Assembly: GCF_902652985.1 (NCBI RefSeq)
Contig: NC_047032.1
Coordinates: 28,024,001 to 28,088,000 of the forward strand
Source of the DNA: Pecten maximus
Lineage: Eukaryota
DNA length: 64,000 bases
Direction of reading: 5' to 3'
In this document: positions 1,966 to 30,619 of the stretch, piece by piece
How the letters are laid out: the number at the start of each line of letters is the position of its first letter
Position numbering within the stretch: the first letter of the stretch is position 1
The notes under the pieces: model-generated
Seen by the model: only the letters and a program-made list of their open reading frames with translations
What the model was told of the DNA's origin: nothing
Database searches by the model: none
Translations under genes and position numbers: made by a program

Positions 1966-2250
1966 AAATGTCTATAGAACTAAGTCTTTGACGGGAATAT
2001 AGCAATGTTACTAGCATAAATGATGCATGATTTATATAAGATGTATATAAGATAATATGTAAGATGATCATATTGTAATGAAGTAGACTACAAACGCATT
2101 TACTTTAGGCTTAAAAAGCATGGCATTCCAAGATTTCTTTAATTCTAATCTACTTGTGATTGAGTGCACAATGAGAAATACAAACTAAAAGACGTGTTTT
2201 CATTAATGCTTTCAGATTAATGATTTAATCAATTGTAAAGATCTAGTGTT

Positions 2251-4407
2251 CTAGAAACATTTACAGAAATTGTCCAAACAATGCCATGCCTTGTCATCAT
2301 CATGTGGGGCCCTCTTGTCGTGGGGTCCATGGTGGGGTCCATGGTGTTCATGTCCACACACGCCCAAGTCAGTTTCACAATCTGCCTTCATATTGCAAGC
2401 TGTTGGGTAATACCACAAAACATCTTTTAGTGTTTTATTTCTGCTAAATCGGATACGTGCATACTTTTATGCCATCTAATCATTATTAATCCACTACTTA
2501 TTCAGACACTGTTTTGACGTTTTTTACTAAAAGTTAGAAATCATTGACGATTTGAAGCTTTTGGATCATAAACATGCTGTATTATGAAACGTTTTTGTTT
2601 CGCATTCTTTAAAAACAGTCAATTGAAGTTAGACTAATTTGTCAAAATTTCACTCGGGCACTATTAAACCTTTCCCAAACTAATGACGAAATTGGATAAT
2701 TTCACGAGAAAATGACACATCACTCAATGTTTGCATGAGTAGTACTTTATGTAACAATCTTTAGAACGAGTGCTCAAATAATCACGTAATTGCACGTACT
2801 CAAAGCGCATAAAACGTCAGAAACAATTATATATCTAAATGTGGTAGAGAAAATATGTCCGAAATAATTATTCAATTAACCACTTTAAATGAATATGTAT
2901 CATTGGAACCGTACGGAAAATGGCGGACAATTTTTCCTAGAAACAAGAAAATACGGAATTAGACTCAATATCAGTGGATTTATTTTGAAGCCGTGTGTTT
3001 GTATCTACCATTTTCAAAGCTAAAATAAAGCGCCATCACATTGAAGGATATTTATAGGTGCATCAATTACTTACGGACGTTAGGATCAATAGCACATGTG
3101 CATTCGTCATGCTCACAGATCATCATTGTGTTGTTGCCAGCACACGTTGTTAGCACGCACGCAGTACTAACGTCGTCATCTTTGTGGCAGTGCTCGCTCA
3201 CTACGTAAGCTGTTGAATGAAATAAATATTAGTATATACAGCAGTATAGGAGCACACGAGCTTCAGCGTGAGTAAATAAATACAATACCCAACAACCACT
3301 TGTCTTGTGACCTGTTTCTACCACAATTTCGAGAAGGCAGCGACAGGATTGTAACCTTGTTTGGGTACTCGTATATGCTGACATATGCAAATAAGGCGTT
3401 TTTCAAAAGATGTACCATAATCAAAGGTATTTAGTCAGAGCAACTACTGTATATAACGTACAGTGGTAGTTAGACGGGTCATCAGTTCTGCAGTGCATTA
3501 ATGAAACAATAGCCGACTTTAATCTGTTTCCCACCAAAACTCGACTAATCGCCTCTTTGTCTTCGATGTTTTGTGAGACTGGCCGTCATTGATGTGAACT
3601 ATATATGTGCTGCCGTGTTCGGGACCTCTATATACAAAAATATAATAACGGAGATGCATTCTAAACAACAGATATTGTTCCAGTCTGTCGTTTTTCCCTA
3701 GAACATTTTGAACGAAATCTCAACTTCTTCACGTCACGAGCAGTTTTTGTGTTTGCCTCTGATGCCATAAAGCCATCAATATCAAAATCATTGACACGTC
3801 GGCGAAATATCTAGATGTGATAGCAGTTTGTACATCAAGTCTTGGACACGACTGTATGACGTCGAAGCGATATCTGATGACGTCAACAAAAGATCGCTTG
3901 GCACGAAACAAAACAGGAAAAAGTAGTTCAGGTCAGGGCAATCAAAAGACCGGAAGGCCATATATCCAACAGTCAGCACGTTTACAAAATGGTCCAATAT
4001 TCGAGAAGCACAACTGATTGTGGTAGAAACAAAAATATAAGTATGAGTCTAAGACGGAGACAATCTATCGGTTACCAATAAAGATAATTGCCATGACTCA
4101 AATAGTACATAATTTCCGAATTTAAAGTCATTTTTGATAAGCGTTCACGAAATTGTGCATTCGCGAATATGTCTGAAGATGAAGTTCGCAAAATGAAAAC
4201 ATGACAAAATCTAGGTGATTTATCACTTTTTTTGGCCGAGATAATTATCTACCAAAATTCAAAATGTGACAGATATAACTGGATAAGTCACCTTAATGTA
4301 TCTCGGCATTGTCTAGGAAACTACTTCGGTCACTTAACACTTAAAACCCATCTTCGATACTTACCAACAAATGCTGCAAGGCAGGCGGTGACGATGAAGA
4401 ACCTCAT
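2251..4407 (-). CDS. Secreted 12-Cys serine protease inhibitor-like peptide (cvSI-2 / MEROPS I84-like), paralog 1; 3 exons, 108 aa
   Basis: Manual splice reconstruction with GT-AG phase-1 introns: exons 4407-4365, 3209-3075, 2399-2251. Protein: MRFFIVTACLAAFVAYVVSEHCHKDDDVSTACVLTTCAGNNTMMICEHDECTCAIDPNVPCNMKADCETDLGVCGHEHHGPHHGPHDKRAPHDDDKAWHCLDNFCKCF*. It has a signal peptide and two 6-Cys halves each ending in CxC. Family assignment rests on the recognised cysteine pattern, not on a search. Confidence 0.85.
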
Positions 4408-4452
4408 TGTAATGGGTGAAAAAATACGTCTTAACATTGATAGCAGATCACG

Positions 4453-4460
4453 TTTATATA
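4453..4460 (-). promoter_or_regulatory. TATA box of inhibitor paralog 1
   Basis: TATATAAA on the minus strand about 45 nt upstream of the ATG, conserved at the equivalent position in paralog 2. Confidence 0.6.
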
Positions 4461-5064
4461 CCGATGTCTTATCTGACTTATGGACAGCTACTGATATGAT
4501 AGAGATCTAGATCACGACAAATTTCATAACAATACATGATTGATATGCCAGTGGCTTAGTTCTAAGACACGACTATTTAACACCTTTAAAGTTGTGTTTT
4601 GTTGGAGTTTTTGGCGTGTATGTTTTCTGTCAGATAAAGGGTTTATTCGCGATAATGTGTTTTTACATTAAACTCAGAAAGCAAAATAAACACACACAAA
4701 AAAACAACAATTAAGTGTGCATAAGGCTATAGTTCATAGCAACACGAACCATAGCCTCATTTCTTGAAGTTTTCCTGTTTTTATGAATCTGTCTCCATAA
4801 ACTTTCCATAATTGTACTTACAATTTATACACCAGGCATGTTCTTCTGTAACACTGCTGCCGGTTGTCCTAATAGGTGAATCCTGATTTCTGTCTTCTAG
4901 TCAGAACTTTTAATTTGTGAAACGAATCGTGTACGTCTGTCTCTACTTGATGGTTTATCATTCCAGTTTATTCCACTTCGAGGACGATCACAGATTATTG
5001 GAAAGAAAAACACCTCAGAACAAGTGCATTACATATGTCTGCTTACTTCTGATACATAGACCCC

Positions 5065-5128: not shown

Positions 5129-5910
5129 GAATTCGGCAGTATGCTTCAGTGAGGTAGCACTATAAATCGGCAAAACCCATACAATGTAGTGACAAGTACT
5201 CACGTGTAGTGGCTGTATGTATACATTGCGGGGTTCAGGATCAAAGAGGCCGCTCTCTGACACCCCGCGGGATTAAATACTAGCTCACGTGCGAAATGAG
5301 TTCCAACCAAGGGAGCTAACTCCCCCGATTTTCACTACACTAGTAACAAAGTGATATTTTCGCTCAAATGAAATGTCTACTCGTTTTACCTGGTATCTGT
5401 ATCGGTTTATTGCCGGCACCATACATGTATCTACTGAATACGTATTTTTTATAGTCAAACCAACTTTTTAGACTAGACCTTAGCAAAAACTGACGACTGA
5501 TAGATGTGAATCAATCAGAAAACGTTAGGGTTGTCCCCCTTGAATGCAGATTACTCCGCGCGAGCGTGAAATGCGTGTAATATAGATTTTTCTTACATAG
5601 CAATCTTACATGTGCAAACTCAATCAAACACGGCAAGATATAAGTAAAAATTAAGTAACTTACCAGAGCCCCTAAAAGGTTGTTATCAACAATATTTATT
5701 CCAATGTATCGACTAAGACCCTTCACCAACTCTCTTAAGCTGAAGCTTTAAACTTAGTTGTTGTATGCCATCCCATGGAAGCCTAGGACTAGCATAAATG
5801 TATAATTTTATGGAAGAAAGTCTTGGACAGAAAAATTGTAAATGGAACTAGCATAAATGATGTATGATTTCATTGAAGAAAGTCTTAGACGGGAAAATGT
5901 GAATGCAACT

Positions 5911-6151
5911 AGCATAAATAAACAATTAAATATTAATATTTAATTGCATTTATGTTAAGTGCTTGTGATTGTTGTATATTATGTATATTAACCTTATATG
6001 GTAATTTGACATCACATGACCAGAGTAAGACTGCGCTGTCAGGCATCACGTGATCATTGCGAGACTGCGCAGTACAGCTTTTGAGACGTCACTTTAGCGT
6101 CAGCCAGAAAAGGGAGTCAAAGGCCAAAGGTAAATGTGTTTTATTTGCATT
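5911..6151 (+). repeat. Split direct repeat A1 (241 bp)
   Basis: Near-identical to 12276-12516. Confidence 0.95.
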
Positions 6152-6212
6152 TGACACGGGTCATTACCCGATTTTTATTGTACTTCCTCTGCTCATATTG
6201 TATATCCGGGTC

Positions 6213-6812
6213 ATGGATAGTTCGCCAGTGAACGTGGCTGTTATGGGACATAGCTTTGTGCGCCGTTTATCGGAATTTGTGTCGAGTAGGGATGCAGAAT
6301 GGCGGAATTTGAGGCTAGAGGAGTCGAGTATCAAGGTTTCCTTTCTGGGCAAAGGCGGAGGTCGAGTTTCTGATCTTTTTTCTGATCAATTCAGACGTTT
6401 CGTGGAGGCGGTAACTCCCGATGTGGTTATACTTCAAATAGGTGGCAATGATGCTGATTGTCCTTCGGCAGAACCTCGTCGATTGACGATTAACATTTTC
6501 TCGATTGCGGAGTGGTTGCTTGGGTATGGGGTAAAGCATGTTGTGATTATGCAGTTGTTACCGAGACAGCAAACTCGTCGGGTTTCCCCCGTTGTGTACA
6601 ACGAGTTTATTAAGACTGTGAACCAACACATCAAACGCATGGCTAGCACACGAGGTGATATTTCTTACCACAAACATAAAGGTTTGAAGGGAAGTCCCAC
6701 AAATGTGTTTCGTCGAGATGGGGTTCACCTAAATGACGCGCACGGGCTCCCCAAGTATGTAAGGAGCGTGCGCGGTGCGGTCATTGTAGGGGCCAGACAA
6801 CTCAGCTCGTGA
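6213..6812 (+). CDS. SGNH/GDSL-type hydrolase (esterase) encoded by the YR retrotransposon, 199 aa from ATG 6213
   Basis: All four SGNH blocks are present: MGHSFV (catalytic Ser), GKGG, QIGGND, RDGVHLN (DxxH). Confidence 0.85.
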   Translation: MDSSPVNVAVMGHSFVRRLSEFVSSRDAEWRNLRLEESSIKVSFLGKGGGRVSDLFSDQFRRFVEAVTPDVVILQIGGNDADCPSAEPRRLTINIFSIAEWLLGYGVKHVVIMQLLPRQQTRRVSPVVYNEFIKTVNQHIKRMASTRGDISYHKHKGLKGSPTNVFRRDGVHLNDAHGLPKYVRSVRGAVIVGARQLSS

Positions 6813-7635
6813 AGACTAACTGATCACAGTAAGTTATGTTTAAGTGTTGTTGTGTAGTTGCCATAATATAGCGGAAGTAATGGAAAGATTGTTGTTGCTC
6901 GAGGTTCTGTTTATTGTATAAACTTAGAGATGAGCTGTAACCAGTCAACTTACACGTGATCTCATACTTTCGGTTTGCTTCGTGTGTTTGTTTACAATCC
7001 GTTATGACCTAGTTAGGATACACGTTTCACTACATACGGTAACTACTAGTTTCACAGGTCATATAGTCGACATGCTAGGGGCCTTTGTGGCCTATGTACA
7101 TTGGTTCTTCATACAAATATAGTTTTGCAGTTATTTCCAGCCTCTGTGGCGTCTTAAGTATGTGTTGGGTGCCTGTGTGTCACCTTTCTAGGTATATATA
7201 GGTATATATATATCTTGGCCTTTGTGGCGAATTTTTACATTGATAAGCCTTGGTGGCTGATGTCCATATTAACAAGCCTTTGTGGCATATGAACTATACC
7301 TGTGTGGATAGTTTGTTAATATTTACTTGTATGTGTGTCTGGGACATGGGTAATTAGTAATGGTGTCATCATTAATCAAATAAATAAACAAATGTGACTT
7401 ACACATTGTTATGTGGTTTGCTAGACAAATTACTGAGGTGTATGGTTATTTTGATGATGTCTACATTTGCATTGTTGAGTTAGGGCAAATAATAAATACT
7501 AATTACATGCAAATAGGTTACAAGTTTTTGAGGCCAACTTGTCTCTAGCTAGCTTGTTTTCCTGTCACAAAGTACATGTTAATATGTCTATACTGGGGCA
7601 TCCAATTATATGTATTTTCTTTCTTTTTGAGCACA

Positions 7636-8801
7636 ATGCCTCTTACTAGACGGGCCGCGAAAAACCACAGGGTGATTAACACCACAAGCACTGAGCGGGC
7701 AACTGAGGTCCAGATAGAACCACCCACTCCACCCAACATAGTCAGGGGCAGAAGGGCCAGAGGGGCAGTGGAGGAGGTGCCAGTGGTGATGGCAACGACA
7801 ACGCCTATTTCTCAAACAGCTGTTCAGACGCCATCAGTCTCAGCTATAGCAGCTGAGCTATTCCAACTTATGAAGGCAGAAGGCATGGTGATGAGAGAAC
7901 CACAGCCAGTGTACCATAGCCTGGGTCAAACAGGGCAATCAACCACTATAAGTGCCCCTATGCAACAGCTGGGGCCTTCTACATCAGGAACAGCTACATC
8001 AGCAGCGCTTGGTGCTCCCGGACAGCAGTTGATACCTCCAGTGCGGACCACAACGCATGATAACGTATTGACTGAGAATTCGTTGCCACTGTCCGATATT
8101 GTTTTTGGGCCTGTGGCCGACAGTTTGACAGGTAATGGTACATTACCTGTTTTCCGCAGCATCAGCCGCCCGCTTGACGTAGGTCTAGAGCCCCGAATGA
8201 AAGAGAAAATTAATTCGGATCAGTTTGTTGAGTTTGGGGCCTTAATCAATCCCAATAAGTCAGAAAAGTATGACATAACCTTTCAGGCCAACACTTTGTC
8301 ATTGGTGCCAAAAATCAGAGCAACACAGCTCAAAACCTTGGAGCAATGGCAGAGTGCCTTTCAAATTTTCGTAACAGTTCTGACAAAATCAAAACCTGCT
8401 TTGGCTGCTTCCCTCATGAAGTACGCCCACACGATTCAAACAATAGCAAAAAAGGCGGGTGATGCTGCGGCGTTAGCATATGATATTAATTTTCGTAAGT
8501 GGAGGCAGGCAACCCCTGATGATCTTCAGAGTTGTATTTAGATGCGCTGACAGCGGGAGTTCAGGCTAAACGCCCCAGCAATCAAAATTCCACACCACCT
8601 GGTCAACAGGGAAAAGTTTGTTATTCTTTTCGTAACAAAGGGATGTGCAACAAAGGAAATTGCTCCTTTCAACATGTCTGCAAATTTTGCAAAGGTCCCC
8701 ATTCCTTTAAAAAATGTCAAAAGCCTGCCCAGCAAAGTCAGCCCACAAATAGCCAACCCGCCGGTGGTAACAAACCCAAAACACCAGGTCAATCAAAATG
8801 A
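7636..8801 (+). pseudogene. gag-like ORF1 of the YR retrotransposon, frameshifted near 8528
   Basis: The DIRS-type gag core (EQWQSAFQIF...AYDINFRKWR) lies in 7636-8541. The C-terminal Cys/His finger (CYSF...CNKGNCSFQHVCKFCKGPH...C) continues in another frame (8532-8801). Confidence 0.8.
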
Positions 8802-10374
8802 AACCATTAGTACTTCTCCAGTGAATTTTAAAAATATCAAACAACATCTTGATAATTATGATAATGAATTAACCAGTTTTTAGGAGAGTGGTTTTCAGTA
8901 TGGGTTCTCTTTGCGTTATGAGGGCCCTAGGATGTTTAGGCATGCTGACAATTTGCTTTCGGTAAAACAAAACCCAGAAATTCTGGATCAGAAAATTCAA
9001 CAGGAAATAGCTCTAGGTCGTATTTCGGGCCCCTTTTCAACACCACCTTATCAGAATTTGCAGATATCACCGCTAGGTTTAGTACCAAAGAAAGAGCCCG
9101 GGGAGTTTAGGGTCATACATCATTTGTCTTATCCTTTGGGCTCGTCCATAAACGATGGTATTGCAGATAGTGATAAATCAGTGCAGTATGAAACTTTAGA
9201 TAAAGCTGTGGAAATAATTAATCATTTTGGGCAGGGAACTTTAATGGCAAAAACGGATATCGAATCCGCATTTCGTATCATCCCGGGTCATCCAGATGAT
9301 TATGAATTGTTAGGAATGAAAATAGGTTCTAGCTACTATTATGACAAGTGTCTGCCCATGGGATGTGCTATTTCATGTCAACTTTTTGAAAAATTTAGTT
9401 CGTCGTTGCATTGGATTATGGAACATCAGTTCCATGCATCTGGTATGGTTCACGTTTTAGATGAATTTTTATTTTTGGGACCGCCAGATTCAAACAATTG
9501 TCAGGTTGATTTACAATTTTTTTTAGATTTATGTCAACATGCTCGCATTCCGATCAAAGCTTCCAAAACAGTCATGCCAACAACCTGTCTTACATTTCTT
9601 GGCATAGAATTGGACACTGTTGAGATGGTAGCTAGATTACCAACTGACAAAGTTGAGAAAATGAGACAAACAATAGCTGCTTTTCTGGTTAAGGGCAAAG
9701 TAACGTTACGTGAAATTCAGTCCCTGATAGGGTTATTAAATTTTGCTTGTCGTGTTATCACCCCGGGCCGACCCTTCCTTCGTAGGTTAATATCATTAAC
9801 TCTCGGCTTCAGTAAACCTAACCATCATGTGCGTTTAATAAAAGCCGCAAAGTGTGACCTGAGAGTTTGGCAGGTTTTTCTGAACCATTTTAATGGTACT
9901 ACCATGTTGTTACCCACGGCTTGGCATTCATCAGATACTTTGTGTATGTTTACTGATGCCAGCAATTTAGGTTTTGGAGCTATTTGTGGGTCACATTGGT
10001 TCAATGGGGAATGGCCAGAAAAATTACAGATATATCACATTAATATCAAGGAACTGTTTCCGATTACAGTCGCTCTTGAAGTGTGGGGTCACAAACTTAG
10101 GAACTCTAGTATCCTGTTCTTTTCGGACAATCTGTCTGTAGTCCACATAATAAATAAACAGTCGTCGTCAGATCAAGTCATGATGAATTTAGGTAGAAGG
10201 CTCGTTGTTGCAGCCCTAACTTTTAACATTCAATTTAGGGCTCGTCATATTCCTGGCAGGTTGAACGTTGCAGCTGATTTACTGTCTCGTTTACAGGTCC
10301 AGGCTTTTCGTCAGCACGTTCCACACATGGACAGTTGTCCCATGCCAGTACCTCAGACGTTGTTACAAATCTGA
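8674..10374 (+). pseudogene. RT/RNase H ORF of the YR retrotransposon with an in-frame TAG (8881-8883) and a DD-to-DE catalytic change
   Basis: ORFs 8674..8883 and 8911..10374 are in one frame (TSF*ESGFQYGFSLRYEGP). Motifs: SPLGLVPKK, KTDIESAFR, LPMG, HVLDEF (expected xLDD) and RNase H FTDAS / KEL / SDN / NVAADLLSR. Confidence 0.9.
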
Positions 10375-11297
10375 CACAAGAAGTACGCTGCCTGCTAGAC
10401 AACGCACTTACCGAGAGCTCTAAACAATTATACAGGAGGGCTTTTCATTTACTGTTTACATTTTTGCATAACACTATGCATGTTAGATGTCACTTGCCCA
10501 TTAGCATTGATCACTTAGCACTGTTCATAGCTCATTTGGTACAATCTGGCTTTGCCACTTCTACTATTTATTCTTATGTATCTGCTATTGGTTATGCACA
10601 CAAATTGTTGAATCATACAGATCCTACTCAAATTTTTGTTATACGGAAAATGTTAACAGGATTACAGAAGAAAGGTAAAGCTCCTGACACTCGCCTTCCA
10701 ATTACTCAATCGATTCTTCAAAAGCTTGTTTCTTCTTTGTCAGCAATTGATCTCACCCCTTATGAAATCTTGGCTTTCAAGTCCATGTACTTGTTGGCAT
10801 TCCATGCATTCTTGAGAATTGGGGAGATTGCTGCGGGCCAAAGTAAACACAACCTTTTACAACTTAGCAACATTCAGTTCTTTAAGGTGGGGTCAGTTGC
10901 TTTTCCTACGCGTTTAGAAATCAAATTTGAGTCGTACAAAGGTCATTATCATACTGATCCTATGACTCTTTCCCTACAAGGGCATTCTGATAAGTCGTTT
11001 TGTCCAGTATACAATCTGTATTGCTTTCTACAGACAAGGGGCTCAAAACCAGGTCCTCTATACATTTTTCAGTCGGGCAAACCAGTCTCCTATGCATACT
11101 TTACAAGAATTATGAAACGTGTTCTGTTAGCTTCTGGTTATAGCACTGACTCATATAAGAGTCATAGTTTCAGAATAGGAGCTGCTAGTTTGGCCGCAAC
11201 CATGGGGGTACCTGAGGGTGATATTCAAGCAATGGGCAGGTGGCATTCGCGTGCGTTTAAGAAATACATACGTATACCAACTTTTTCTGCAATTTAG
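10335..11297 (+). CDS. Tyrosine recombinase (phage integrase family) of the retrotransposon
   Basis: Catalytic set FLRIGE (R), YKG (K), SHSFRIGAA (HxxR), GRW and KKYIR (Y). The ORF overlaps the end of the RT ORF and has no ATG at its 5' end. Confidence 0.92.
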   Translation: MSHASTSDVVTNLTQEVRCLLDNALTESSKQLYRRAFHLLFTFLHNTMHVRCHLPISIDHLALFIAHLVQSGFATSTIYSYVSAIGYAHKLLNHTDPTQIFVIRKMLTGLQKKGKAPDTRLPITQSILQKLVSSLSAIDLTPYEILAFKSMYLLAFHAFLRIGEIAAGQSKHNLLQLSNIQFFKVGSVAFPTRLEIKFESYKGHYHTDPMTLSLQGHSDKSFCPVYNLYCFLQTRGSKPGPLYIFQSGKPVSYAYFTRIMKRVLLASGYSTDSYKSHSFRIGAASLAATMGVPEGDIQAMGRWHSRAFKKYIRIPTFSAI

Positions 11298-12048
11298 TTA
11301 GCTAGTGAGTTGGATGCATGGCATCTTCACACTAGGTTAACATTGAACAATAATGGTTTGATTTGCCTGCCTCCCATTTTACATAACTTCATACAAACTA
11401 TTTAATGTTAGTTGTGTTTATTACATTAGAACCATTCTATTGTTGGCGTCATTTAACACGCAGTGAAATTTATCATGAGCTGATTATGAGTGAAAAAGTG
11501 TATTAACTAGCTAGACTGCAAAGTGGAAATAAGGGTCTTGGGGTGATGCACCTCTGCTCCTTTTTTCATTATTTTATACACGGGGTATTACTGTGGTCAG
11601 TATACACCAGAAAGTTACATTTGGTTCAGTGCGGTTCTTCCTTAACATTTCCATGATATTCGTTGGACTTATCGTGTATACGTACAATCATATGGGCATG
11701 GGGTGATGCACTTCTGCCCTTAGGAGCCAATGGACGTATTTGGAATAACCGCATATAGTAAGCTTACTAGTGACACTTCAGTGTAAGCAATGATATTTGG
11801 GATGGCTTATGCCATTCATACGAAACTGTTCAGTTCATGAGACACAATTTTGAACAATGTGCATTTCTTAAAGGGAATTTGGGATGCTTCAGCTCTGCCC
11901 TTCTCATGTAGTTAAAGTTATATATGTATGTAAATAATTGTATTACAAAGTTATTCCTGTGTTAATCAGTTTTCAGTCAGACTGCTTCGGGTGGGGATGC
12001 ATTTGTAATGTCACTGACCCATGGGTCACTGACATGACACTGCATGGT

Positions 12049-12516
12049 GGCTGATTTTCCCCCTCACCTACAATAGTCATATATAGAAAGTTATCCTGAT
12101 TAGGATAAACCGTGTTATGTAATGTTAATTTTCATTACATAAGGTTATGTAATTAAATATTTCATGTCGTTTTAATAAACGGCCATTTCAATCTATCAAA
12201 GTGTTTCTGTTCTTTGTGACTATTGGACAAGCTTGCAGTTTGACTGAAAGCGCAGTGTGGTAAAACAAGCAGCTGAGCATAAATAAACAATTAAATATTA
12301 ATATTTAATTGCATTTATGTTAAGTGCTTGTGATTGTTGTATATTATGTATATTAACCTTATATGGTAATTTGACATCACATGACCAGAGTAAGACTGCG
12401 CAGTCAGGCATCACGTGATCATTGCGAGACTGCGCAGTACAGCTTTTGAGACGTCACTTTAGCGTCAGCCAGAAAAGGGAGTCAAAGGCCAAAGGTAAAT
12501 GTGTTTTATTTGCATT
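12049..12516 (+). repeat. Split direct repeats B1 (12049-12275) plus A2 (12276-12516); internal copy of the circle junction
   Basis: B1 matches 13033-13259 and A2 matches 5911-6151. The junction reads CAGCTG-AGCATAAAT-AAAC. Confidence 0.95.
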
Positions 12517-13032
12517 CCCACCTCCTACCCCATCACCGCTATGGTTGTTTGGCCTTTGCATTCTCTTTTCTTACAGTTGACAATTTACTTTTAGAAATCC
12601 TGTAAGACGTGTTCATTTTATTTACTTGTTGAGAAATCTTTGTAAGATTTCAATCATCGATTCTTTTTTACTGTTGCGAAATCTTTGTAGATTTCATTCA
12701 TGTATATATTGTAGAATTATGAGGATATCTGTTTCATTTGGTTAGGCAATCTTGGTAGGATTTTGTTCATTTTAAGATTGTTTTTCAAACTTATGTTTAA
12801 TTTTAATGTTTTTCTATATTGCATTTACTGCTTTATTCAATTTAGTATGTACATGTCCATACACACCTCAAGTGGTATTCGGTTATAATTGAGTGAGTAA
12901 ACACTTACCAGCTGGCCTAGAGCACGGATAAATCCTACCTCCCTCTTCCCTAGAAAGGGGAGAGGTTGGGGCAGCCCGCTCGCAGCACACTTGAGGTGTT
13001 ACATGTTACGTTTTGTACAATTTTTAGGTTTG

Positions 13033-13268
13033 GGCTGATTTTCCCCCTCACCTACAATAGTCATATATAGAAAGTTATCCTGATTAGGATAAACCGTGTT
13101 ATGTAATGTTAATTTTCATTACATAAGGTTATGTAATTAAATATTTCATGTCGTTTTAATAAACGGCCATTTCAATCTATCAAAGTGTTTCTGTTCTTTG
13201 TGACTATTGGACAAGCTTGCAGTTTGACTGAAAGCGCAGTGTGGTAAAACAAGCAGCTGAGCATAAAT
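13033..13268 (+). repeat. Split direct repeat B2 plus 9-bp core AGCATAAAT
   Basis: Identical by eye to 12049-12284. Confidence 0.95.
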
Positions 13269-13684
13269 GATGTATAATTCCATGGAAGAAAGTCTTAGAC
13301 GGGAATATGTTTTTCTTGAATATCGGCACAGCTTACAAGAATTATGTATATAACTTCCACGGAAGAAAGCCGTAGACGGGAAAATGTCTGCAAAAACACA
13401 CTTTGTTGGTTCCGCAGTAAATACATTTGTATCAAATGTATCATAAATCTTGAAAGTGTAAAAATCAAATTATTGACACGTGTAAATGGTTTAATGTAAT
13501 AAGAAGATTAGACTTTAATTTGGAAGACTACAAACGCATCGGATGATTTCAAGAGTTTCTTTATTCCAAGCTTAAAAAGCATAGATTGCAAGAAACGAGG
13601 ATAAGATGTTTTAAGAAAAGACAAGTGTTCTATTGATGTATTCCGAATAAATAATCAAATTAATTGTAAAAAACAAATGGTGGA

Positions 13685-16600
13685 CTAGAAACATTTACAG
13701 AAATTGTCCAAACAATGCCATGCCTTGTCATCATCATGTGGGGCCCTCTTGTCGTCATGGGGTCCATGGTGGGGTCCGTGGTGTTCATGCCCACACACGC
13801 CCAAGTCATTTTCACAATCTGCCTTCATATTGCAAGCTGTTGGGTAATACCACAAACAAATCTTTTAGTGTTTTATTTCTTCTAAATCGGAGAAAGAAAA
13901 GCGTATCAAAAGTCATCTAGATAAAACGCCATTTCATGACCCATTAGCCTTAATTTCTGAAAGACTGCAGTATTTAGTTTAAAAATTAGAAAACATTGAT
14001 GATTTGAAGTTTCTGTGTAATAACCATGCTTCATTACGATATATGGTTTTGTATCGCGATATTTGAAAATGACCACTTAAAGGTAATTATATTCGTCAAC
14101 AATGTCCGCTGGTGCTAATAATCTCTATCTAGAGTAATGAAGATAGGGGTAAAGATATCACCTATTATTTGCGTGTGTAGCACTTTATGTAACTTAAGTC
14201 TATATTATGAGTTTCAAAAATTCACGTAACTGCTCTAATTTATAGCGCATTAAACGACAAATTAATACATATCTAAATGTATAATGGTAGTAAAGATATG
14301 GCAGGAATAATGCATTCAATATTTTATTATTTTATTGAATGTGAATTGTGGCGAGCAATTTTGTTATGAATTTAAGATACTGATTTAGCCTCTTTAACAG
14401 TGAATTTATTTTGAAGCTGTGTGTTTGTATAATCTTTTATCAATAATATCAATTTTAAAAATGATATGAACAGTTTCGAAAATTCTCCAGAAATCGACAC
14501 CATACGAATATCTTTCTTTGAAGAACATGCATAATGAACTTACGAACTCGTGGGTCAATGGCACATGTGCATTCATTATGCTCACAGATCATCATGGTGT
14601 GGTTGCCAGAACACTCTGTTAACACGCATGTAATACTAACGTCGTCATCCTCGTGGCAGCGCTCGCTCACTACGTACGCTGTTGAATAAAATAAATAGTA
14701 TTATTTGCAGTGTTATAGCAGCACATAAGATATTATGTTAATGGTAATGCGCACTTACATATAATTCACTGTCTGATACATAGTGGTGACACAACGAGTG
14801 ATTGTTGGATATGATATTTAACCTGGTTTAATTATTTTTTTTAAAGTTACATAGACATGAGTTTTAACGATAGTGAAATAAATACCCTTTCCAACAGCCA
14901 CGAGTCGTGTGACCTGTTTCTACCACAACTTCGAGTCTGCATTGGCGAGATTGTGACTTTGTTTGAATACACGTGTTGTATAATATGGCTGTTTTTTTTA
15001 ATACGCGCGTTTTTCTAACATGTATGTATGCAATTAAGGAGTAGTGATGTAAAAAGTTGAAAATTGATATTAAGAAATTTTAATTTAGCAAATAATGTAT
15101 CATATAATGATATTTTCTCTTCAAATATGATCAACTATATAACAAACTTTTGTATCAAGAAGTCTTTCAAAAAATGTCAGCAGTACTGTAGTGCATTGTA
15201 GCAGGCCGGGTTTTAAGTGTAAATACTGTACATATAGTTGTATGGTCGCCTTCTAGCTTCCGGCTAGGGGAGATTTCCCTTTAGCACGGTCGTTAGAGCG
15301 GCGGACCAGTAAGCCGAGGGTCGCGGGTTCGATCCCGGCTGGCTGCACACTACTACTCCTTGAACTTTTACAGCATAAATGAAACAATCACGGACTTTTT
15401 GAACGTATGTGTGTGTTGTTGTCGACGCATCGCTGTCACTGTCGGAGTTCAAGACCCTTTGTCTAGGATGTCTCTGGGAGACTGACTTGTGGTAATGTTT
15501 TATTGTAAATGTGCTGCCGTATATAGGACCTCTAGTAACTATATTGTAACGGAAATGCATTCTGTGCGACAGATATTGTTTCAATCGGTCGCTTTCCCCA
15601 AGAACATTTTGAAAGAAATCTCGACTTCATGCCACAAACAGTTTTTGAGTTTACCTGTGATGCAATAAAGCCATCAATATGATCAAAATCATCGTTTGCA
15701 ACAGGTGAACGAACAAAAACAATACCGCGACAGATTTAGATTTAATACCAGTTTGTACATCAAGTCACAACTTTGACACGACTGTTTGACGTCGAAGCGA
15801 TTTCTGATGACGTCAACAAAGGATCACGTGACACAAAGCACGCGAAGGAAAAGTAGTTCAAAATCACAAGCGATCGTAAGACCGGAAGGTCATATACCAC
15901 TAGATATATATCGATAGATTTAACCAGCAGGTGGCATATTTACACAGTGGTCCTATATTGGAATAACAATAGCATATTGTGGTTGAAAAACAAAAAGAAA
16001 TCTGAGTCTAAGTGAAACAGACCTTTAGATAACTCAAAAAGTCAAAACTTCTTGAAGCTTCACTTTTTTCAATTAAATCAATTAAATTTCTATAAAAAAA
16101 AAAACAACAACATATTCCTCTAGTTAGGGAAATGAAAATGTTATCTTTGTCATTGGAATATGTCTTCATGAATTAAAATTATCTCAAGCTGAATGTATTT
16201 ATAGTTTTTCATGTCCTAAAATATCCAAAGGCGCCACATCAAGTTACTTCGATAAAGCAATTGATAAAATTGCATAGATTCATCAAAGAACCGATATTGG
16301 CGTTAGCATATGGTGCAATCAATTCGAATAATTGACCGAAATATTTAAACTGGCAGCACTTCGTAGGAAAGAAAAGACCTTTATGATTGTTAACCCAGTT
16401 TTGTGTATCATACAGCACATATAAATCAAAATATTGAAACTATTGAGATAAGCGATTGTACAGACACAGATGCGAATAATACCTCCCGACCTGTATAAAA
16501 ATGCGGTACAACAAATATCAACTGCACCATACAGCAATTTTGTATCACTTATATTTCACGTCGAATTCATTTTCACGTTTATACCCTATGAGAATCAATC

Positions 16601-16996
16601 GCGAATTTAAATCCTTCGCGATGGTTTTTAAGAAAAACAAACATCTTTGGATAATGACAAGCTATCAGTTACCGATATAGATGATTGCAGCAGAGGCCAT
16701 AACAACCGTTAATTGTTCGCAAATTTAAAGTCACTTTTATATCAATGGTCATGTAATAATGTATCCGCAAATATGTCTAAAGAAATAATTGCTATCAATA
16801 CTTATTTTTTGCCAAGATAAATATCTATCCAAAATTATCATGATATGCTAGGGTGACATTGATAACTCAATAATTAATCTCGGCATAGCCAAACCAACTA
16901 CGTCGGTCACTTAGCATATTCTACAGTGGCTAAAATCTATTCTCAATATTTACCAAGAAATGCTGCTAGGCAGGCGGTGACGATGTAGAACCTCAT
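13685..16996 (-). CDS. Secreted 12-Cys serine protease inhibitor-like peptide (cvSI-2 / I84-like), paralog 2; 3 exons, 109 aa
   Basis: Exons 16996-16954, 14678-14544, 13836-13685, with the same phases as paralog 1. Protein: MRFYIVTACLAAFLAYVVSERCHEDDDVSITCVLTECSGNHTMMICEHNECTCAIDPRVPCNMKADCENDLGVCGHEHHGPHHGPHDDKRAPHDDDKAWHCLDNFCKCF*. Exon 2 appears within ORF 14455..14670. Confidence 0.85.
15266..15347 (+). mobile_element. tRNA-derived SINE head / tRNA-like remnant in intron 1 of paralog 2
   Basis: Box A-like TAGCACGGTCGTTAG and box B GGTTCGATCCC, but no proper acceptor stem. It is absent from the paralog 1 intron. Confidence 0.5.
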
Positions 16997-17043
16997 TGTA
17001 ATGCGTGAGAATGACGTAACAAGGACAGCAGAAGCAGACAACG

Positions 17044-17051
17044 TTTATATA
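17044..17051 (-). promoter_or_regulatory. TATA box of inhibitor paralog 2
   Basis: TATATAAA on the minus strand about 47 nt upstream of the ATG at 16996. Confidence 0.6.
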
Positions 17052-17684
17052 TCCCGGTCTTATCGTACATACCGACAGTTACTGATATGCTTTAGATCTA
17101 GCACAAGATAAATTTTGCAAAAAAAACATTAATATGTTACTGACTTAGTTCTAAGACACGGCAGTTTTTTCTCTCGCGAAAATGGTTGTTAGACTAATAA
17201 ACTACATGCTGAACAGCGATGGCCATCTTTTTGGTGAATATCAAACTGAATCAAAATATATATACATTTATGTTCGACCTGTAATATTTATAAATTATTG
17301 AAATACTTAATTAGAAGGCCTCTTAACTAGACTGCATTCAAATGTATAGAATGTTTATATATACTACAACGTAACACGATTAATATGAAGGATACAAAAT
17401 CGCGTTATTTGTAAATAAAGTCGTACATGCGACAAAGTTTCGTTAAGGTTATGTGCCCGACATTTTGGCCTCTGGTTTGAGCATATGTCCCCGTAAGGAA
17501 GGTCTAGTGTGCTGTCTCCATGCACGCCGTCACGTACCAAAGGCATCAAAGGGGTATTTAATGTATCACGCTCATTTAAAAACGAAATTGCCATAAATAT
17601 TTCATTAAACAAGTTTTCTGTCATTAGATGTATAGATAATGTTGTTTACCAGTCATGCGATCAGTATTTTCACTTTCGTACTAA

Positions 17685-24276: not shown

Positions 24277-27200
24277 TCACGTGTGAGGTTCGGCTGACAG
24301 TGCCTTCACAAATTCTGGAAGAAAAGTTAATAACTATTATTTAATCATTTTTATCTTATGTTAGGTGTCCTCAGAATAACGACAATCGTATAGTTTTTAG
24401 CTTATACCATTCTATCGACTTAAAACACTCACTAAATACTTCATATGTGTATAAAATGTTCAAATCATTCCATTATTTCGCATATTGAGAGTAATTTATA
24501 ATCAGTTAATAATCCAAACACATAAACCCTAGAATACTGGGATATGAGCATATTCGTTCTCTTACCGTCTATAGAAATTTTTCCGTCACTGTTTACGTCG
24601 ACAAGTCTGAAGACCTCCTCGGCCTCCTGGTCAGACATTTTCTCCCCCATACCCCTGAGAACCTGCTTGAGTTCCCCTTTGTCCAGGTAACCGTTTCCGT
24701 CACGATCGAAGGTACAAAAGGCCTGTCGGAGTTCCCGGTCTTGAAAATCTAGTAGAGCTACGTACTCTTCCATCATCGTCTCAAACTCCCGATAACTAAT
24801 ACATCCATTTCCTGTAAAGACACGCGATTTTCATGTATGTAAACCCTAACAATCTAGTAATATTATATCTTTGTAGGATAACCACTGAAGCATTGATGTA
24901 GCACTTAACTTAGTATCTTTCTTCTCTACAAACCACCCTACATTCTTATGAATAGCAATAACGTTAGGAATTCAGTTCCAAACAGACAAATCACCCAATA
25001 ACATCAACTACTATCAGTTTTCTATCGACGATACTCTTTTAGTCTTAACTAAATGTAATTGTTAATTATACAGAAAAAAATGGTTATAGAATTACTTTGT
25101 ATACTTTCGTAAATAGAACCATGAATATCCGGGTAGTGACAATAGGATTGCTTTATAATTCTAAGATGATTAAAACTTTAGAAAAACGTCATTTCTTAAT
25201 GTACACCGATGGATTGTTTAATCCGTAAGTTTTATAAACGTGCTATGGATAAGGATACATACAAAATATAAAATTTAACGTAGACGTAAAACATTTTGGT
25301 CAACGATCAAATCTTAGTATGAGGACAATTATATAATACTGCACTTACTGTCTTTGTCAACTTTTCTGATCATTGCCATAGCTTCTTCTCGCGTTGGCTT
25401 CATTTTGAGCATGCGCGCAGCTGTCATAACTTCATTTACGCCAAGACTTCCGTTTCCGTTTGTGTCTAATTGGCGAAACAGCTTCTTCATCACTGGAGGT
25501 AAAAAAAATGTTTTGTGACTACTATCCAACGCCTAATCAACACGTTCAGTTCATTTAAGGATGATGTCTATTTAAAGTGGCTATTCTAAAGTAACATATG
25601 GGGATGGAAGCTGAGGGACACCAAGCGCCATGGTCATATGATGGGTGTGTATATTGGAAGAAAAACAACTAGCGATAGGGGTCAATCCACGGTAATAAAG
25701 GGTGTGGTTAGGGCTGCACAACATACCAATGTTTTATGAGCAATAGTACCTACGAAACAAAACCCCAGGATTTGCAGGGGACATCAACAGCAATGGTTAC
25801 ATGAGTACTATTTAAAGGGGAAAGGGGGATGGAGCGTTTGAAAAGGATTAAAAGGGACCATCAACATCCATATCAATTTAAGACGGATTTTTTTTTAGAA
25901 AATCATCAGCCAGAGCCATACGAGACGGATTTATAAGTACACATCCACTGCTAGGGCCAGGCTATATGAGGAATGAGTTAAAGGGAACATCATCAGCCAG
26001 GGACATTTGAGACGGAATTGTAGGGGTAGCATCAACAGCAAGGGATATTTGAGACGGAATTGTAGGAGTAACATAAACAGCCAGGGACATTTGAGACGGA
26101 ATTGTAGGAGTAACATAAACAGCCAGGGACATTTGAGACGGAATCGTAGGGGTAACATCAATAGCCAGGGACATTAGAGACGGAATTGTAGGGGTAACAT
26201 CAACAGCCAGGGACATTTGAGACGGAATTGTAGGGGTAACATCAATAGCCAGGGACATTAGCGACGGAATTGTAGGGGTAACATCAATAGCCAGGGACAT
26301 TAGCGACGGAATTGTAGGGGTAACATCAATAGCCAGGGACATTAGAGACGGAATTGTAGGGGTAACATCATCAGCCAGGGACATTTGAGACGGAATTGTA
26401 GGGGTAACATCAATAGCCAGGGACATTAGCGACGGAATTGTAGGGGTAACATCAATAGCCAGGGACATTAGCGACGGAATTGTAGGGGTAGCATCAACAG
26501 CCAGGGACATTAGAGACGGAATTGTAGGGGTAACATCAATAGCCAGGGACATTTGAGACGGAATTGTAGGGGTAACATCAATAGCCAGGGACATTAGAGA
26601 CGGAATCGTAGGGGTAGCATCAATAGCCAGGGACATTAGAGACGGAATCGTAGGGGTAACATCAATAGCCAGGGACATTAGAGACGGAATTGTAGGGGTA
26701 ACATCAACAGCCAGGGACATTTGAGACGGAATTGTAGGGGTAACATCAACAGCCAGGGATATTTGAGACGGAATTTTAGGGGTAACATCAATAGCCAGGG
26801 ACATTAGAGACGGAATTGTAGGGGTAACATCAACAGCCAGGGACATTAGAGACGGAATTGTAGGGGTAGCATCAATAGCCAGGGACATTTGAGACGGAAT
26901 TGTAGGGGTAACATCAATAGCCAGGGACATTTGAGACGGAATTGTAGGGGTAACATCAATAGCCAGGGACATTTGAGACGGAATTGTAGGGGTAACATCA
27001 ACAGCCAGGGACATTAGAGACGGAATTGTAGGGGTAACATCAATAGCCAGGGACATTAGAGACGGAATTGTAGGGGTAACATCAATAGCCAGGGACATTA
27101 GAGACGGAATTGTAGGGGTAACATCAATAGCCAGGGACATTAGAGACGGAATTGTAGGGGTAACATAAACAGCCAGAGACATTTGAGACGGAATTGTAGG

Positions 27201-28627
27201 GGTAGCATCAATAGCCAGGGACATTTGAGACGGAATTGTAGGGGTAACAACAGCCAGGAACTTGAGACGAATTTATAGGGACATATCCACGGGCATATGA
27301 GGACCGGTTTACTTTGGGACATCAACAACCAGGGCAATGTGAGGACGAATTTAAAGGGAAACATCAACAGCCAAGGCAATGTGAGGACGAATTTAAAGGG
27401 AAACATCAACAGCCAAGGCAATATGAGGACGGATTTGAAGTATGAGGACGGATTTGAAGGGTAACATCAATATCCAGAGCCATATGAGGACGGGTTATAG
27501 AACATCAACAACCAGGGCCATATGAGGACAGATTTAAAGGTAAACATCAACAGCAAGAGCCATATGAGGACGGATTTGAAGGGTAACATCAATAGCAATG
27601 ACCATAGAGGGCGGGTTATAGAACATCAACAGCCAGGGTCATATGAGGACAGAAATCCAGATGGACACCAAAACAGAAACAGTAAACAAGGAGGAAACGA
27701 ATCGACAAAACTGTTGCACAATGGGCATCAGCTCAATTTTAAACAATAAGTGTTTTGGTAGCACTTCCAGAGAATGTCGATAATATGGCTTATCATTAAA
27801 GTTTGGCATATACTGAATTGTTTGTTTACATATAATGCATTCACATTTAAAGACGGTATCCAGTTGTATGTCTTGTTCATTTCTTTGTAATATAGAGCAC
27901 AGTTGTTCAAACGGTGATTAGCGTAATCACTTGATAAGTGAGAATCTCATTTCTCCTTTATTTAAAAATCTAGTTGCATGTAGGAGGAGACTGACAAGTG
28001 CTATAGTTTCATCTTTTGTCAAATAAGTTTTACCACAAATGGTTTTATTAGGTTCCCAACTTTTTTTCCTATCATCACTGGCTAGACAAGGAATGACGAA
28101 TTCGAAACAGCTGTATGATTAATATTTAGCTATGAAAGGGCGAAATAGCTGTATATGTAATACAGTGTGTACTAGTACATATATGTATTAAGATATGAAA
28201 GGACGAAATAGCCGTGTGATTAATATTTAAATATGGAAGGACCAAACAGATGTACGATTAATATTTAATGTTTTGTTATTTTTTATCAAACCCTTGAAAT
28301 GTATCTTCATGTATATAATTATATCCTTTTGGACAAATTGATTTATAACCCTTTTCCCTAGGATGTTCAGATTTTACCGTCGTTTACAAGTCTGCGTTGT
28401 CTTGTGTAGTTTCTTACCTATTTCGGTCGCATATATCTGAAGACTGTCAATGTCCGGTAGTAGGTCAAAGTCTTCCTCATGTACAAGATAGAAGGATTTT
28501 CTTTAGAGCGAAATGTGTTTTCTAATCATCATCATAGATGAATTTGGTAATTGACAGAAATAATGGACTCACCTTTTTTAAATGTCCGTTCGTCTTGTAG
28601 TTCCCGAAGAGCTATTTTCTGGTCCAT
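24277..28627 (-). CDS. Calmodulin-like four-EF-hand calcium-binding protein (about 160 aa; first coding exon tentative)
   Basis: Exons 28627-28573 (tentative, MDQKIALRELQDERTFKK), 25492-25349, 24811-24566, 24314-24277, all joined by phase-1 GT-AG introns. EF loops are DTNGNGSLGVNE, DKDRNGCISYRE, DRDGNGYLDKGE and DVNSDGKISIDE. The protein ends FVKALSAEPHT*. It is too divergent to be canonical calmodulin. Confidence 0.85.
25770..27650. repeat. 42-bp minisatellite: about 30 homogeneous copies (25985-27260) with degenerate flanking units, inside an intron of the EF-hand gene
   Basis: Unit GACGGAATTGTAGGGGTAACATCAATAGCCAGGGACATTAGA. Confidence 0.95.
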
Positions 28628-30619
28628 TATCGTTACTGTATCTATATGAATATAAAAAATAGTTACATCAAACAGATATGTGTATTCTTTTTCATTACAG
28701 ATTAATGATATCGCAAAATCAGAGGAACACAACTTCAAAACTGCTATGAAAAGAGTGCATCTTTACCATTCCCGTTGGAATGTGACCCTTTAAAATCTGG
28801 CTTTATTGAGGACAGTTGACACCATACGTTTACAATTCCGATCTGAGAAATCCAGCCGTCTTCTTTACATACGAGGGGTGATTCCAGATTTTTTAAGTTG
28901 CTTATTCGATCAATATGACTATTGAATGTTTACATTATTTCTTGAATTGGTACTACGTTCGTCATGACGGTAGTGGTTCTTACAAACGTAAGCAGACACA
29001 GCCATCGTTCTTGGATGAGGGGGTGTGGATTTGCGTAGGGTTTAACGATACTATCTAGAGTAATGATAGCCGCTGACGTATAAAAACACAATCAGAAATA
29101 TATCATATGAAAATAAAATAAAATCGATGATAAAAATCCTCGCTGCGTGACATTACACCATTGTTGTTTACACGGTACGTATGGCCATCGATTCTCACTT
29201 ACAATAGATACATTTCTAAAGTTGAAAGTGCTATCATATACATCGATCGCCTCGTATCTATTGTTCCGACATTGATCCTTCGCTATCCGTTCGCTGATAT
29301 CCAATAACATGCTTTGCTGTCTGTTATAGATCTTGCGGCACGCGCTGGATTTTAAACGTGCTCTGAATACGATAACACTTAATTATTTCGCTCTGTTATA
29401 AAAAAAAAAGTTTCCTCGGTTTAATGAACCATTGCATGAATTTCAAACTTGTGTTTAACTGTTAGCAGAAATATAAATATAAATGTATGTATACCCATCA
29501 TTTTCTAGATGCAAACGTAAGTCGACCAGTTAATAAGTTAACCAGCCTTAATATACCTCTTCATTAATTGCATTATTCCTGGCTTCCAGTAAGTAATCTC
29601 TAAGCCAATAAAGGTTAAAATCGCGGTTCAGAATTAGGTCTTGTGCCTAACTGGGTGCACACTTTCACGACATGGCGAGAATGCTGACTGCCATTATTGG
29701 TCCAATAATACCGTATTGGGAAATTATCGGATACGGTAATCGGAAAGCCTATCGTGGGTATTTCAATAATGTTCTTTGGAAAGGTAACTACGGATGTCCT
29801 TATGTCTTTCTTAATGTTTTGGAAACATAAATAATTAATTTAGATCTGCAGAAATGGTCCATTCCAAATAATGATGATGTAATAATGTAATGGTTTTTTA
29901 TCGTGGTAATAATTTTATGATCCATTTTGTTATGCAGATTAAAGAATTGGTACTTGCATGTTTTAATTTGTGAAAATTTCTATTGATACAACCACAGTGA
30001 GTTGAATTATCATAGGACACCAACGTGAGGACGGGTATTTCTTATGGTCAGTATATAAAATATTTAGAAAAATGATCGAATCATTTCTTCTAGAAAAACC
30101 AATGTCATTTATAAGGCAAGCATCCATTGCAGTGGTTCTTGTACAGTTATGGAGGTCATTTGTAGGGGGTGTTGAGTATATGTATGTGATACTATATGAA
30201 TGTCATTTCCGTGGATGACGACGATAATATGTAGTGTAACGAACAGAAATGTTAATTCAGAGATGGAGATGATATTCTCTGGTGTTATATATAGAAATGT
30301 CAATTTCGAAGGTGCTATTGATATTCTCTGGTGTTATATATAGAAATGTCAATTTCGAAGGTGCTATTGATAAAACATGTATGTGTATCATGACTAGGCG
30401 TCTAGTTCGTGTCTATGGCATATACAGTTTTATGAAACGGAAAAGTAAGTTTTAGTAAATATTGATAATCATAGAAAGATTACAAGTGACATGTTTGTAG
30501 TATGAAAGATGACGATATGTTTGGTATGATGAATAGATGCTGAAAGTTTTAATCACTCTCAATAATGATAGTATGAGACTATCAGCAAGTTGTAGTGAAT
30601 GTCGGTGGGGATATGTAGC

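What the first reader, a model, noticed from the sequence alone, without database searches (positions are those of the whole stretch)
5911..13268. YR retrotransposon with an intact stand-alone SGNH hydrolase placed first, upstream of gag
Seen: the order is A1 - SGNH hydrolase (6213-6812) - about 820 bp non-coding - gag - RT/RH - YR - B1A2 - 516 bp - B2. The hydrolase keeps all catalytic blocks, while gag and pol carry lesions. Known: some Ngaro elements encode an SGNH hydrolase, which I recall being placed after the YR ORF, and esterase domains also occur in some LINE ORF1 proteins. Inference: this 5' placement may define a distinct molluscan lineage in which a lipid/acyl esterase is the first cistron of the unspliced RNA, perhaps for membrane targeting of the particle.
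Basis: partly seen in the sequence, partly recalled or inferred. Interest (0 to 1): 0.7.

Follow-up and report, generated by a model that had tools for sequence, protein, structure and literature searches.

The report
Scallop retrotransposon with front-loaded esterase
A recently inserted jumping gene in a scallop carries an esterase-type enzyme gene at its front instead of its back, an arrangement shared by a branch of related animal elements, whose sequences also suggest that these elements splice their RNA to attach the start of their coat protein to their other enzymes.

Summary
5911-13268 is a young Ngaro-type tyrosine-recombinase retrotransposon (A1-ORFs-B1A2-516 nt-B2), probably from Pecten maximus. 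An intact stand-alone SGNH hydrolase (6213-6812) lies 823 nt before gag.

It is not a one-off capture. Of 15 related elements, 8 held an SGNH: 4 upstream of gag (2 seen directly, 2 inferred from permuted contigs) and 4 just after YR, the published position. RT/RH, YR and SGNH trees each separate the two layouts by one branch. The lineage is probably not mollusc-only.

New here: a conserved phase-1 splice donor in gag (8 of 10 elements) matches phase-1 acceptors before YR (9 of 10) and before the 3' SGNH (4 of 4). This implies Gag-leader fusions. The 5' SGNH has its own start and stop and is not fused to Gag, which weakens the particle-anchoring idea.

Splicing and enzyme activity are inferred, not shown. 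Intactness of the hydrolase in this copy is uninformative. Repbase/Dfam and the founding papers could not be checked. Verdict: new variant of a known kind.

The parts
5911..6151 (+). A1 split direct repeat; begins with the 9-nt recombination core; holds a donor-like site at 6129/6130
6213..6812 (+). Stand-alone SGNH/GDSL hydrolase ORF, 199 aa, pI 10.3, no transmembrane segment
6813..7635 (+). 823-nt non-coding spacer: donor-like site at 6829, AATAAA at 7379 and 7491, T-rich tract and AG ending 7631, four bases before the gag ATG
   Evidence: function inferred, acceptor score not significant
7636..8801 (+). gag (basic, low-complexity leader, core, zinc knuckle), broken by a frame change near 8523-8541
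8129..8137 (+). Conserved phase-1 splice-donor-like site in gag (GT at 8132, codon 166)
   Evidence: 8 of 10 elements
8551..10374 (+). pol: RT and RNase H, no methyltransferase; in-frame stop at 8881-8883; VLDE at the RT motif
10276..10296 (+). Conserved phase-1 splice-acceptor-like site at the LSRxQ end of RNase H, opening the YR frame
   Evidence: 9 of 10 elements
10278..11297 (+). Tyrosine recombinase ORF, intact, with no Met before the domain begins
11988..12068 (+). Predicted stem-loop closed by a G-rich motif and a C-rich motif at the start of B1
   Evidence: z -2.35; similar in L003 and L009
12049..12284 (+). B1 repeat with poly(A)-signal-like AATAAA at 12174
12276..12516 (+). A2 repeat; shares the 9-nt core with B1 (internal copy of the circle junction)
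12517..13032 (+). 516-nt spacer
13033..13268 (+). B2 repeat; ends in the 9-nt core
5788..5910 (.). Host repeat of about 62-77 nt (further copies 13260-13387) whose 9-nt core is the insertion target

Best explanation
A young but crippled copy of a Ngaro-type YR retrotransposon, from an old animal lineage in which the SGNH hydrolase is a separate first gene between repeat A and gag.

Shown in sequence: the anatomy, insertion at a shared 9-nt core, recurrence of the layout in relatives, and an intact catalytic set.

Inferred: (1) The RNA starting in A is translated into a soluble, basic, roughly 200-aa serine esterase from its own ATG. (2) gag lies behind 41 upstream ATGs, so it needs a spliced or internally started RNA. 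(3) YR is made by splicing a donor in gag onto an acceptor at the end of RNase H, which gives it the basic Gag leader. (4) The sister lineage with SGNH after YR splices the same donor onto the hydrolase, making a Gag-leader::esterase fusion that resembles the LINE ZfL2-1 ORF1p; the 5' lineage makes the enzyme free. (5) Most likely role, about 0.4 on its own: charge-driven binding to anionic membranes and hydrolysis of acyl esters there (lipid or acylated protein), acting in trans to ease particle assembly or transport rather than as a built-in anchor. On the circular intermediate SGNH lies between YR and gag in both lineages, so the layouts differ only in which side of it the B/A junction falls.
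For: Anatomy. A second near-identical gene on another P. maximus contig, 188 of 189 aa.

Layout in relatives: 5' in L003 (follows the repeated B/A block, then gag after 901 nt) and L010 (before gag, only simple repeats upstream); inferred 5' in L005 and L009; 3' in L001, L006, L008, L015 (59-328 nt after YR).

Trees: one branch separates the layouts in RT/RH (100/99), YR (80/92) and SGNH (SH-aLRT 100).

Family: 3,619 representatives at E<=0.001; 138 of 154 examined keep S, N, D and H; 121 of 137 full-length ones have pI>8. The best solved-structure hit of the profile is the ZfL2-1 ORF1 esterase 4C1B, E 1.2e-7, which hydrolyses esters and binds anionic liposomes (PMC3905857).

Splice signals: donor in 8 of 10, p about 4e-6 against synonymous redraws; acceptor Gln is CAG in 9 of 9 (joint p 0.004) with excess pyrimidines (p 0.0013). 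YR has no Met before the domain in the window, L005 and L009. 3' SGNH acceptors are phase 1 in 4 of 4, combined p 1.8e-5.
Against: No transcript, proteomic or activity data. Splice windows were chosen after looking at the sequences, and elements are related (L002 and L004 are close), so the p-values are optimistic. L001 and L008, both 3' type, lack the donor; L008 lacks the LSRxQ acceptor and was left out of the nine tested. Most YR ORFs (8 of 11 listed) do have a Met somewhere before the domain. The acceptor test before gag ATGs was not significant (11 elements, p 0.17), and the window has no AG in the 60 nt before the SGNH ATG. The RefSeq model of the second copy starts ten codons later, inside the first strand, unexplained. 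In the RT tree the 5' elements are not a supported clade; monophyly is only not rejected (p-AU 0.14). L005 and L009 rest on motif order; nucleotide similarity of their B region to the window's was no better than a control. 7 of 15 loci showed no SGNH, mostly on contigs too short to tell. 4C1B is barely ahead of PAF-acetylhydrolase and bacterial GDSL hits, and is not among the Foldseek rows shown.
Confidence: 0.65

Rival explanations
1. The free esterase is a structural part of the particle: it binds Gag or the RNA non-covalently and docks the particle on membranes.
For: The family is strongly basic. ZfL2-1 esterase binds liposomes by charge, independent of its active site (PMC3905857). The 3' lineage appears to fuse the same fold to the Gag leader.
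Against: All five 5' ORFs are single domains with their own start and stop and no extension for tethering. The catalytic set is kept in 138 of 154 relatives, more than a passive anchor needs.
Confidence: 0.2
2. The enzyme acts on a non-lipid ester, such as an O-acetylated glycan or an acylated host restriction or signalling protein, as a counter-defence gene made first and abundantly.
For: First-cistron position with its own ATG. Many structural neighbours are acetyl esterases and thioesterases. PMC3905857 lists de-acetylation and de-palmitoylation as open options.
Against: No substrate clue in the sequence. ZfL2-1 esterase showed no peptide deacetylase activity.
Confidence: 0.12
3. One-off capture of a host esterase gene, or a nested insertion, in this copy.
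For: The SGNH ORF differs in composition from gag/pol (CpG o/e 1.1 against 0.5-0.7). Some long host-like proteins carry this domain family.
Against: The same layout occurs in L003 and L010 directly and L005 and L009 by inference. There is a second near-identical gene in the species. No repeats flank the ORF. The host-like carriers have lost catalytic residues.
Confidence: 0.03

Closest known systems
Ngaro-like elements of Xenopus (DIRS-53_XT, DIRS-54_XT; PMC9210276, passages and section 8 read)
   Same: A1...B1A2...B2 split direct repeats, gag, RT/RH, YR, no methyltransferase, extra SGNH ORF of unproven function.
   Different: There the hydrolase is after YR and all ORFs are said to overlap. 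Here it is first, separated by 823 nt, with its own start. My 3' loci, which share that layout, carry a distant SGNH subfamily; the Xenopus sequences themselves were not compared.
ZfL2-1 / CR1 / RTEX / Penelope ORF1 esterases (PDB 4C1B; PMC3905857, abstract and passages read)
   Same: SGNH fold with a conserved active site carried by a retrotransposon; best PDB hit of the family profile; basic protein.
   Different: Those are domains of ORF1p in non-LTR elements, fused to a coiled coil in ZfL2-1. This one is a free protein in a YR element.
PAT-like YR retrotransposons (PMC4157794, PMC6681497, passages read)
   Same: Split direct repeats, RT/RH and YR.
   Different: PAT elements encode a methyltransferase; none here.
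Cafeteria and fungal Ngaro elements (PMC8547959, PMC3783388, passages read)
   Same: Three-ORF core; YR-mediated insertion.
   Different: Neither text contains the word 'hydrolase' or mentions splicing.

Membership tests
Ngaro-like YR retrotransposon | Split direct repeats A1 ... B1 A2 ... B2 | tested here: met
   definition from PMC9210276
Ngaro-like YR retrotransposon | gag, RT/RH, YR on one strand in that order, YR overlapping RH | tested here: met
   YR Pfam hit is below the curated cut-off (E 7e-4) but the HSFR...Y motifs are present
Ngaro-like YR retrotransposon | No methyltransferase domain | tested here: met
   no such Pfam hit at E<=0.1; pol ends just after RNase H
Ngaro-like YR retrotransposon | RT/RH groups with named reference Ngaro elements | not testable with these tools
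   No named reference sequences were obtainable; trees hold only unnamed relatives
Ngaro-like YR retrotransposon | Insertion by recombination at a short core shared by circle junction and target (recalled model; analogous DIRS passage in PMC7192593) | tested here: met
   9-nt core at both ends, at B1/A2 and in the neighbouring empty repeat unit
Amphibian-type hydrolase-bearing Ngaro | SGNH ORF after YR | tested here: not met
   ORF is 5' of gag; nothing SGNH-like after YR in the window
PAT-like | Methyltransferase domain | tested here: not met
DIRS1-like | Inverted terminal repeats with internal complementary region | tested here: not met
   terminal repeats are direct; longest inverted match is a 24-nt palindrome inside A
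SGNH/GDSL hydrolase | Blocks I, II, III, V with Ser, Gly, Asn, Asp-x-x-His | tested here: met
SGNH/GDSL hydrolase | SGNH alpha/beta fold | tested here: met
   (predicted model)
SGNH/GDSL hydrolase | Ester hydrolysis | not testable with these tools
   needs an assay
Esterase-type LINE ORF1p | Esterase fused to a coiled-coil ORF1 protein in a non-LTR element | tested here: not met
   stand-alone 199-aa ORF in a YR element

The most novel reading that the evidence does not exclude
Animal Ngaro elements run an undescribed alternative-splicing programme. One donor in gag attaches the basic Gag leader, as a packaging tag, to the recombinase and, in one lineage, to the esterase. A second, widespread lineage moved the B/A junction to the other side of the esterase on the circular intermediate and turned it into a free first-cistron enzyme. 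The two lineages would be a natural experiment on whether retrotransposon esterases act as tethered anchors or as trans-acting enzymes.
Probability: 0.4. Interest if true: 0.7.

Novelty: new variant of a known kind. Interest (0 to 1): 0.52.

Why it matters
Why unrelated retrotransposons keep an active SGNH esterase is an open question; the Ngaro hydrolase has 'no proven function' (PMC9210276). A small, soluble, stand-alone version with thousands of natural relatives is easier to assay than a fused domain. Its existence argues that catalysis, not only tethering, is selected.

The predicted gag-to-YR splice would explain how a recombinase ORF without a start codon is made, and it can be tested with existing RNA-seq. 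Practically, many 'uncharacterized GDSL lipase' genes in bivalve annotations are probably transposon ORFs, and some bacterial symbiont genomes in GTDB contain animal retrotransposon contigs.

Tried and rejected
- Fused gene models as evidence of order: the 'longer' search found none (weak evidence). P0044 has a tail that looked gag-like by eye but scored no better than shuffles (127 of 500 as high; no hit). Rejected.
- The SGNH alignment found no relatives in genome contigs; the RT-motif pattern did.
- Acceptor test before gag ATGs: not significant.
- Nucleotide homology of B repeats across elements: not above control.
- Rfam: no match in 5800-13400.
- All 154 representatives score closer to a 5' than a 3' profile, but they were collected with a 5' query, so this does not measure how common each layout is.
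dN/dS could not be computed without DNA of other copies.
- Atlas results are for homologues P0009 and P0161, not the window proteins.
- Literature: searches listed no title or abstract opening that describes a 5' SGNH or gag-YR splicing in Ngaro; I read passages of 11 papers in all. The library lacks most subscription papers. Goodwin and Poulter 2004 and Poulter and Butler 2015 were not seen, nor Repbase/Dfam, nor the supplement of PMC9210276; any of these could already show the layout.
- Metagenome and viral contig collections stayed unchecked.
Full report
1. Observation. Every stated feature is in the sequence. A1 (5911-6151) and A2 (12276-12516) differ at 1 of 241 positions, B1 (12049-12284) and B2 (13033-13268) at none of 236, and 516 nt separate A2 from B2. 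A 9-nt core is shared by the B1/A2 overlap and both host junctions. The same core sits in the neighbouring units of a short host repeat, and the two flanks joined at the core read like such a unit. That fits recombinase insertion at a homologous core. One mismatch in 477 repeat positions means a recent insertion.

The ORF 6213-6812 is a 199-aa SGNH hydrolase (PF13472, E 1.1e-9) with all catalytic blocks, a confident model and SGNH structural neighbours. gag starts 823 nt later and changes frame near 8523-8541; homologues show that the zinc-knuckle piece belongs to it. pol has a stop at 8881-8883 and VLDE at the RT motif. YR is intact. Since the hydrolase is about one seventh of the coding DNA, its escaping two lesions is expected by chance (about 0.74, my arithmetic).

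2. Host and family. The hydrolase matches a Pecten maximus RefSeq protein at 188 of 189 residues on a 55.5-kb contig, so the window is probably king scallop and there is probably a second copy; relatives occur in Mizuhopecten and Argopecten. A profile finds 3,619 representatives at E<=0.001. Of the 154 I examined, 137 are 170-230 aa long and 138 keep Ser, Asn, Asp and His; several of the rest are fragments. 121 of 137 have pI above 8. Atlas look-alikes of a homologue are eukaryotic, mostly molluscan, with one mostly chordate cluster.

3. Gene order in relatives. A degenerate RT motif found 15 loci in GTDB contigs. By their content they are eukaryotic retrotransposons binned into bacterial genomes (inference). 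Eight hold an SGNH ORF. In L001, L006, L008 and L015 it begins 59-328 nt after YR. In L003 it follows a 441-nt block that occurs twice 27 nt apart, the pattern expected of a circle or tandem dimer, and precedes gag by 901 nt. In L010 it precedes gag, with only simple repeats upstream. L005 and L009 look circularly permuted: the ORF lies 1,359 and 1,757 nt after YR, like the 1,280 nt of the window and 1,847 nt of L003 measured the same way, and after motifs resembling B. I count these two as inferred. Seven loci show no SGNH: L002, L004 and L012 hold only 542, 678 and 147 nt before gag, and L007, L011, L013 and L014 are distant elements that I used as outgroup. Both layouts occur in one assembly (JBEVXV01).

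One branch separates the layouts in the RT/RH tree (100/99), the YR tree (80/92) and the SGNH tree (SH-aLRT 100, quick method, about 4.4 changes per site between the groups). The 3' group is a clade in RT/RH. The 5' group is one side of a branch in YR but unresolved in RT/RH, where monophyly is not rejected (p-AU 0.14). L002 and L004, whose titles name the annelid Escarpia laminata as host, pair with the 5' element L010 at 100/100. So 'one-off capture' is refuted and 'molluscan' is probably too narrow. Whether the two hydrolases descend from one capture or two cannot be told.

4. How it is probably expressed. All five 5' hydrolases have an ATG a few codons before the catalytic Ser motif and their own stop. 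The four 3' ones have no ATG there but a YAG acceptor at the domain start, all in phase 1 (combined p 1.8e-5 on a crude score). A matching phase-1 donor, NCA G|GT, lies 25-49 codons before the gag core in 8 of 10 elements, with varying amino acids before the Gly (p about 4e-6 against synonymous redraws). It is absent from L001 and L008. A phase-1 acceptor lies at the LSRxQ end of RNase H in 9 of 10 animal-type elements. The phase follows from the reading frames, but the codon choice does not: CAG in 9 of 9 (joint p 0.004) and 103 pyrimidines against 89.8 expected (p 0.0013). In the window, L005 and L009 YR has no Met before its domain; most others have one somewhere upstream. These tests were framed after looking, on related elements, and no RNA was seen.

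The simplest reading is that the basic Gag leader (7-12 Arg/Lys in the first 40 residues) is spliced onto YR in both lineages and onto the hydrolase in the 3' lineage. gag in the window lies behind 41 ATGs, so it needs splicing or an internal start. A good donor at 6130 and an AG at 7631 are candidates, but the acceptor test across 11 gag starts was not significant (p 0.17). pol is in the +1 frame relative to gag in 10 of 10 relatives compared and often lacks a Met; frameshift or splice is undecided.

5. Function. Inferred by analogy. The family profile's best solved relative is the ZfL2-1 ORF1 esterase (4C1B, E 1.2e-7), narrowly ahead of PAF-acetylhydrolase and bacterial GDSL enzymes. That esterase is weakly active and binds anionic lipids by charge (PMC3905857; abstract and passages). 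The scallop protein is basic (pI 10.3) with no membrane-spanning segment. I favour a trans-acting acyl esterase at anionic membranes (about 0.4), over a non-covalent particle anchor or a counter-defence deacylase. The 5' enzyme's lack of a Gag tether, with strict catalytic conservation, counts against a purely structural role. Binding to Gag could not be modelled.

6. Known versus new. It meets the structural definition of Ngaro-like elements; placement against named references was not possible. PMC9210276 (passages, section 8) puts the hydrolase after YR in amphibians. PMC7192593 and PMC6681497 (passages) mention it without position. PMC3783388, PMC8547959, PMC4157794, PMC13465315 and PMC10294476 (passages) do not contain the word 'hydrolase'. 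PMC9341512 and PMC7599744 (passages) added nothing. Searches surfaced no account of a 5' hydrolase or of gag-YR splicing. The founding papers, Repbase/Dfam and the Xenopus supplement were not seen, and I put the chance that a catalogue entry already has this layout near one half.

7. Verdict. Real, recurrent and lineage-linked: a new variant of a known kind. Interest 0.52; about 0.7 if the splice programme and the free-versus-fused contrast are confirmed.

Noticed in passing
window 11988-12068; L003:6230-6345; L009:5715-5800: A G-rich motif just before B1 pairs with a C-rich motif at the start of B around a hairpin (z -2.35, -2.90, -1.99). C-rich tracts also follow A2 in the window, L003 and L006. 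Possible replication signal; the exact 8-mer occurs in 4 of 15 loci.
   Followed up: partly
L003:6320-7228 and 1-3483/7138-10620: The element is present as a 7,137-nt tandem unit with two B/A blocks 27 nt apart: a circular intermediate or head-to-tail dimer.
   Followed up: partly
window 2187-4571 and 13616-17160 (minus strand): Host segments 70-76% alike flank the element; they encode short Cys- and His-rich exons of a tandem gene pair. They resemble bivalve cvSI-type protease inhibitors (name recalled, not tested).
   Followed up: partly
window 38817-42320 (minus): Uninterrupted 1,167-aa LINE ORF2 with endonuclease and RT domains.
   Followed up: no
proteins P0014, P0019, P0020: Long host-like proteins carry copies of this SGNH family with altered catalytic residues; P0014 has six matched stretches and a Pfam OSK (Oskar) hit at E 4e-10. 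Possible domestication.
   Followed up: no
L001-L015: GTDB representative genomes of symbionts and other bacteria contain contigs that are eukaryotic retrotransposons; five come from one assembly.
   Followed up: partly
P0004 versus window 6213-6242: The RefSeq model starts at Met11, inside the first beta-strand. Two AG sites lie between the two ATGs behind a pyrimidine tract, so a splice there would give a truncated protein. Unexplained.
   Followed up: no
L009:5971-5980 approx.: A sequence matching 8 of the window's 9 core bases sits at the putative B/A junction of this relative.
   Followed up: no
window 25859-27650, 30590-31520, 42598-43300, 45960-50300, 54455-54970, 56835-57520: Several long tandem-repeat arrays, some giving spurious open frames.
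   Followed up: no
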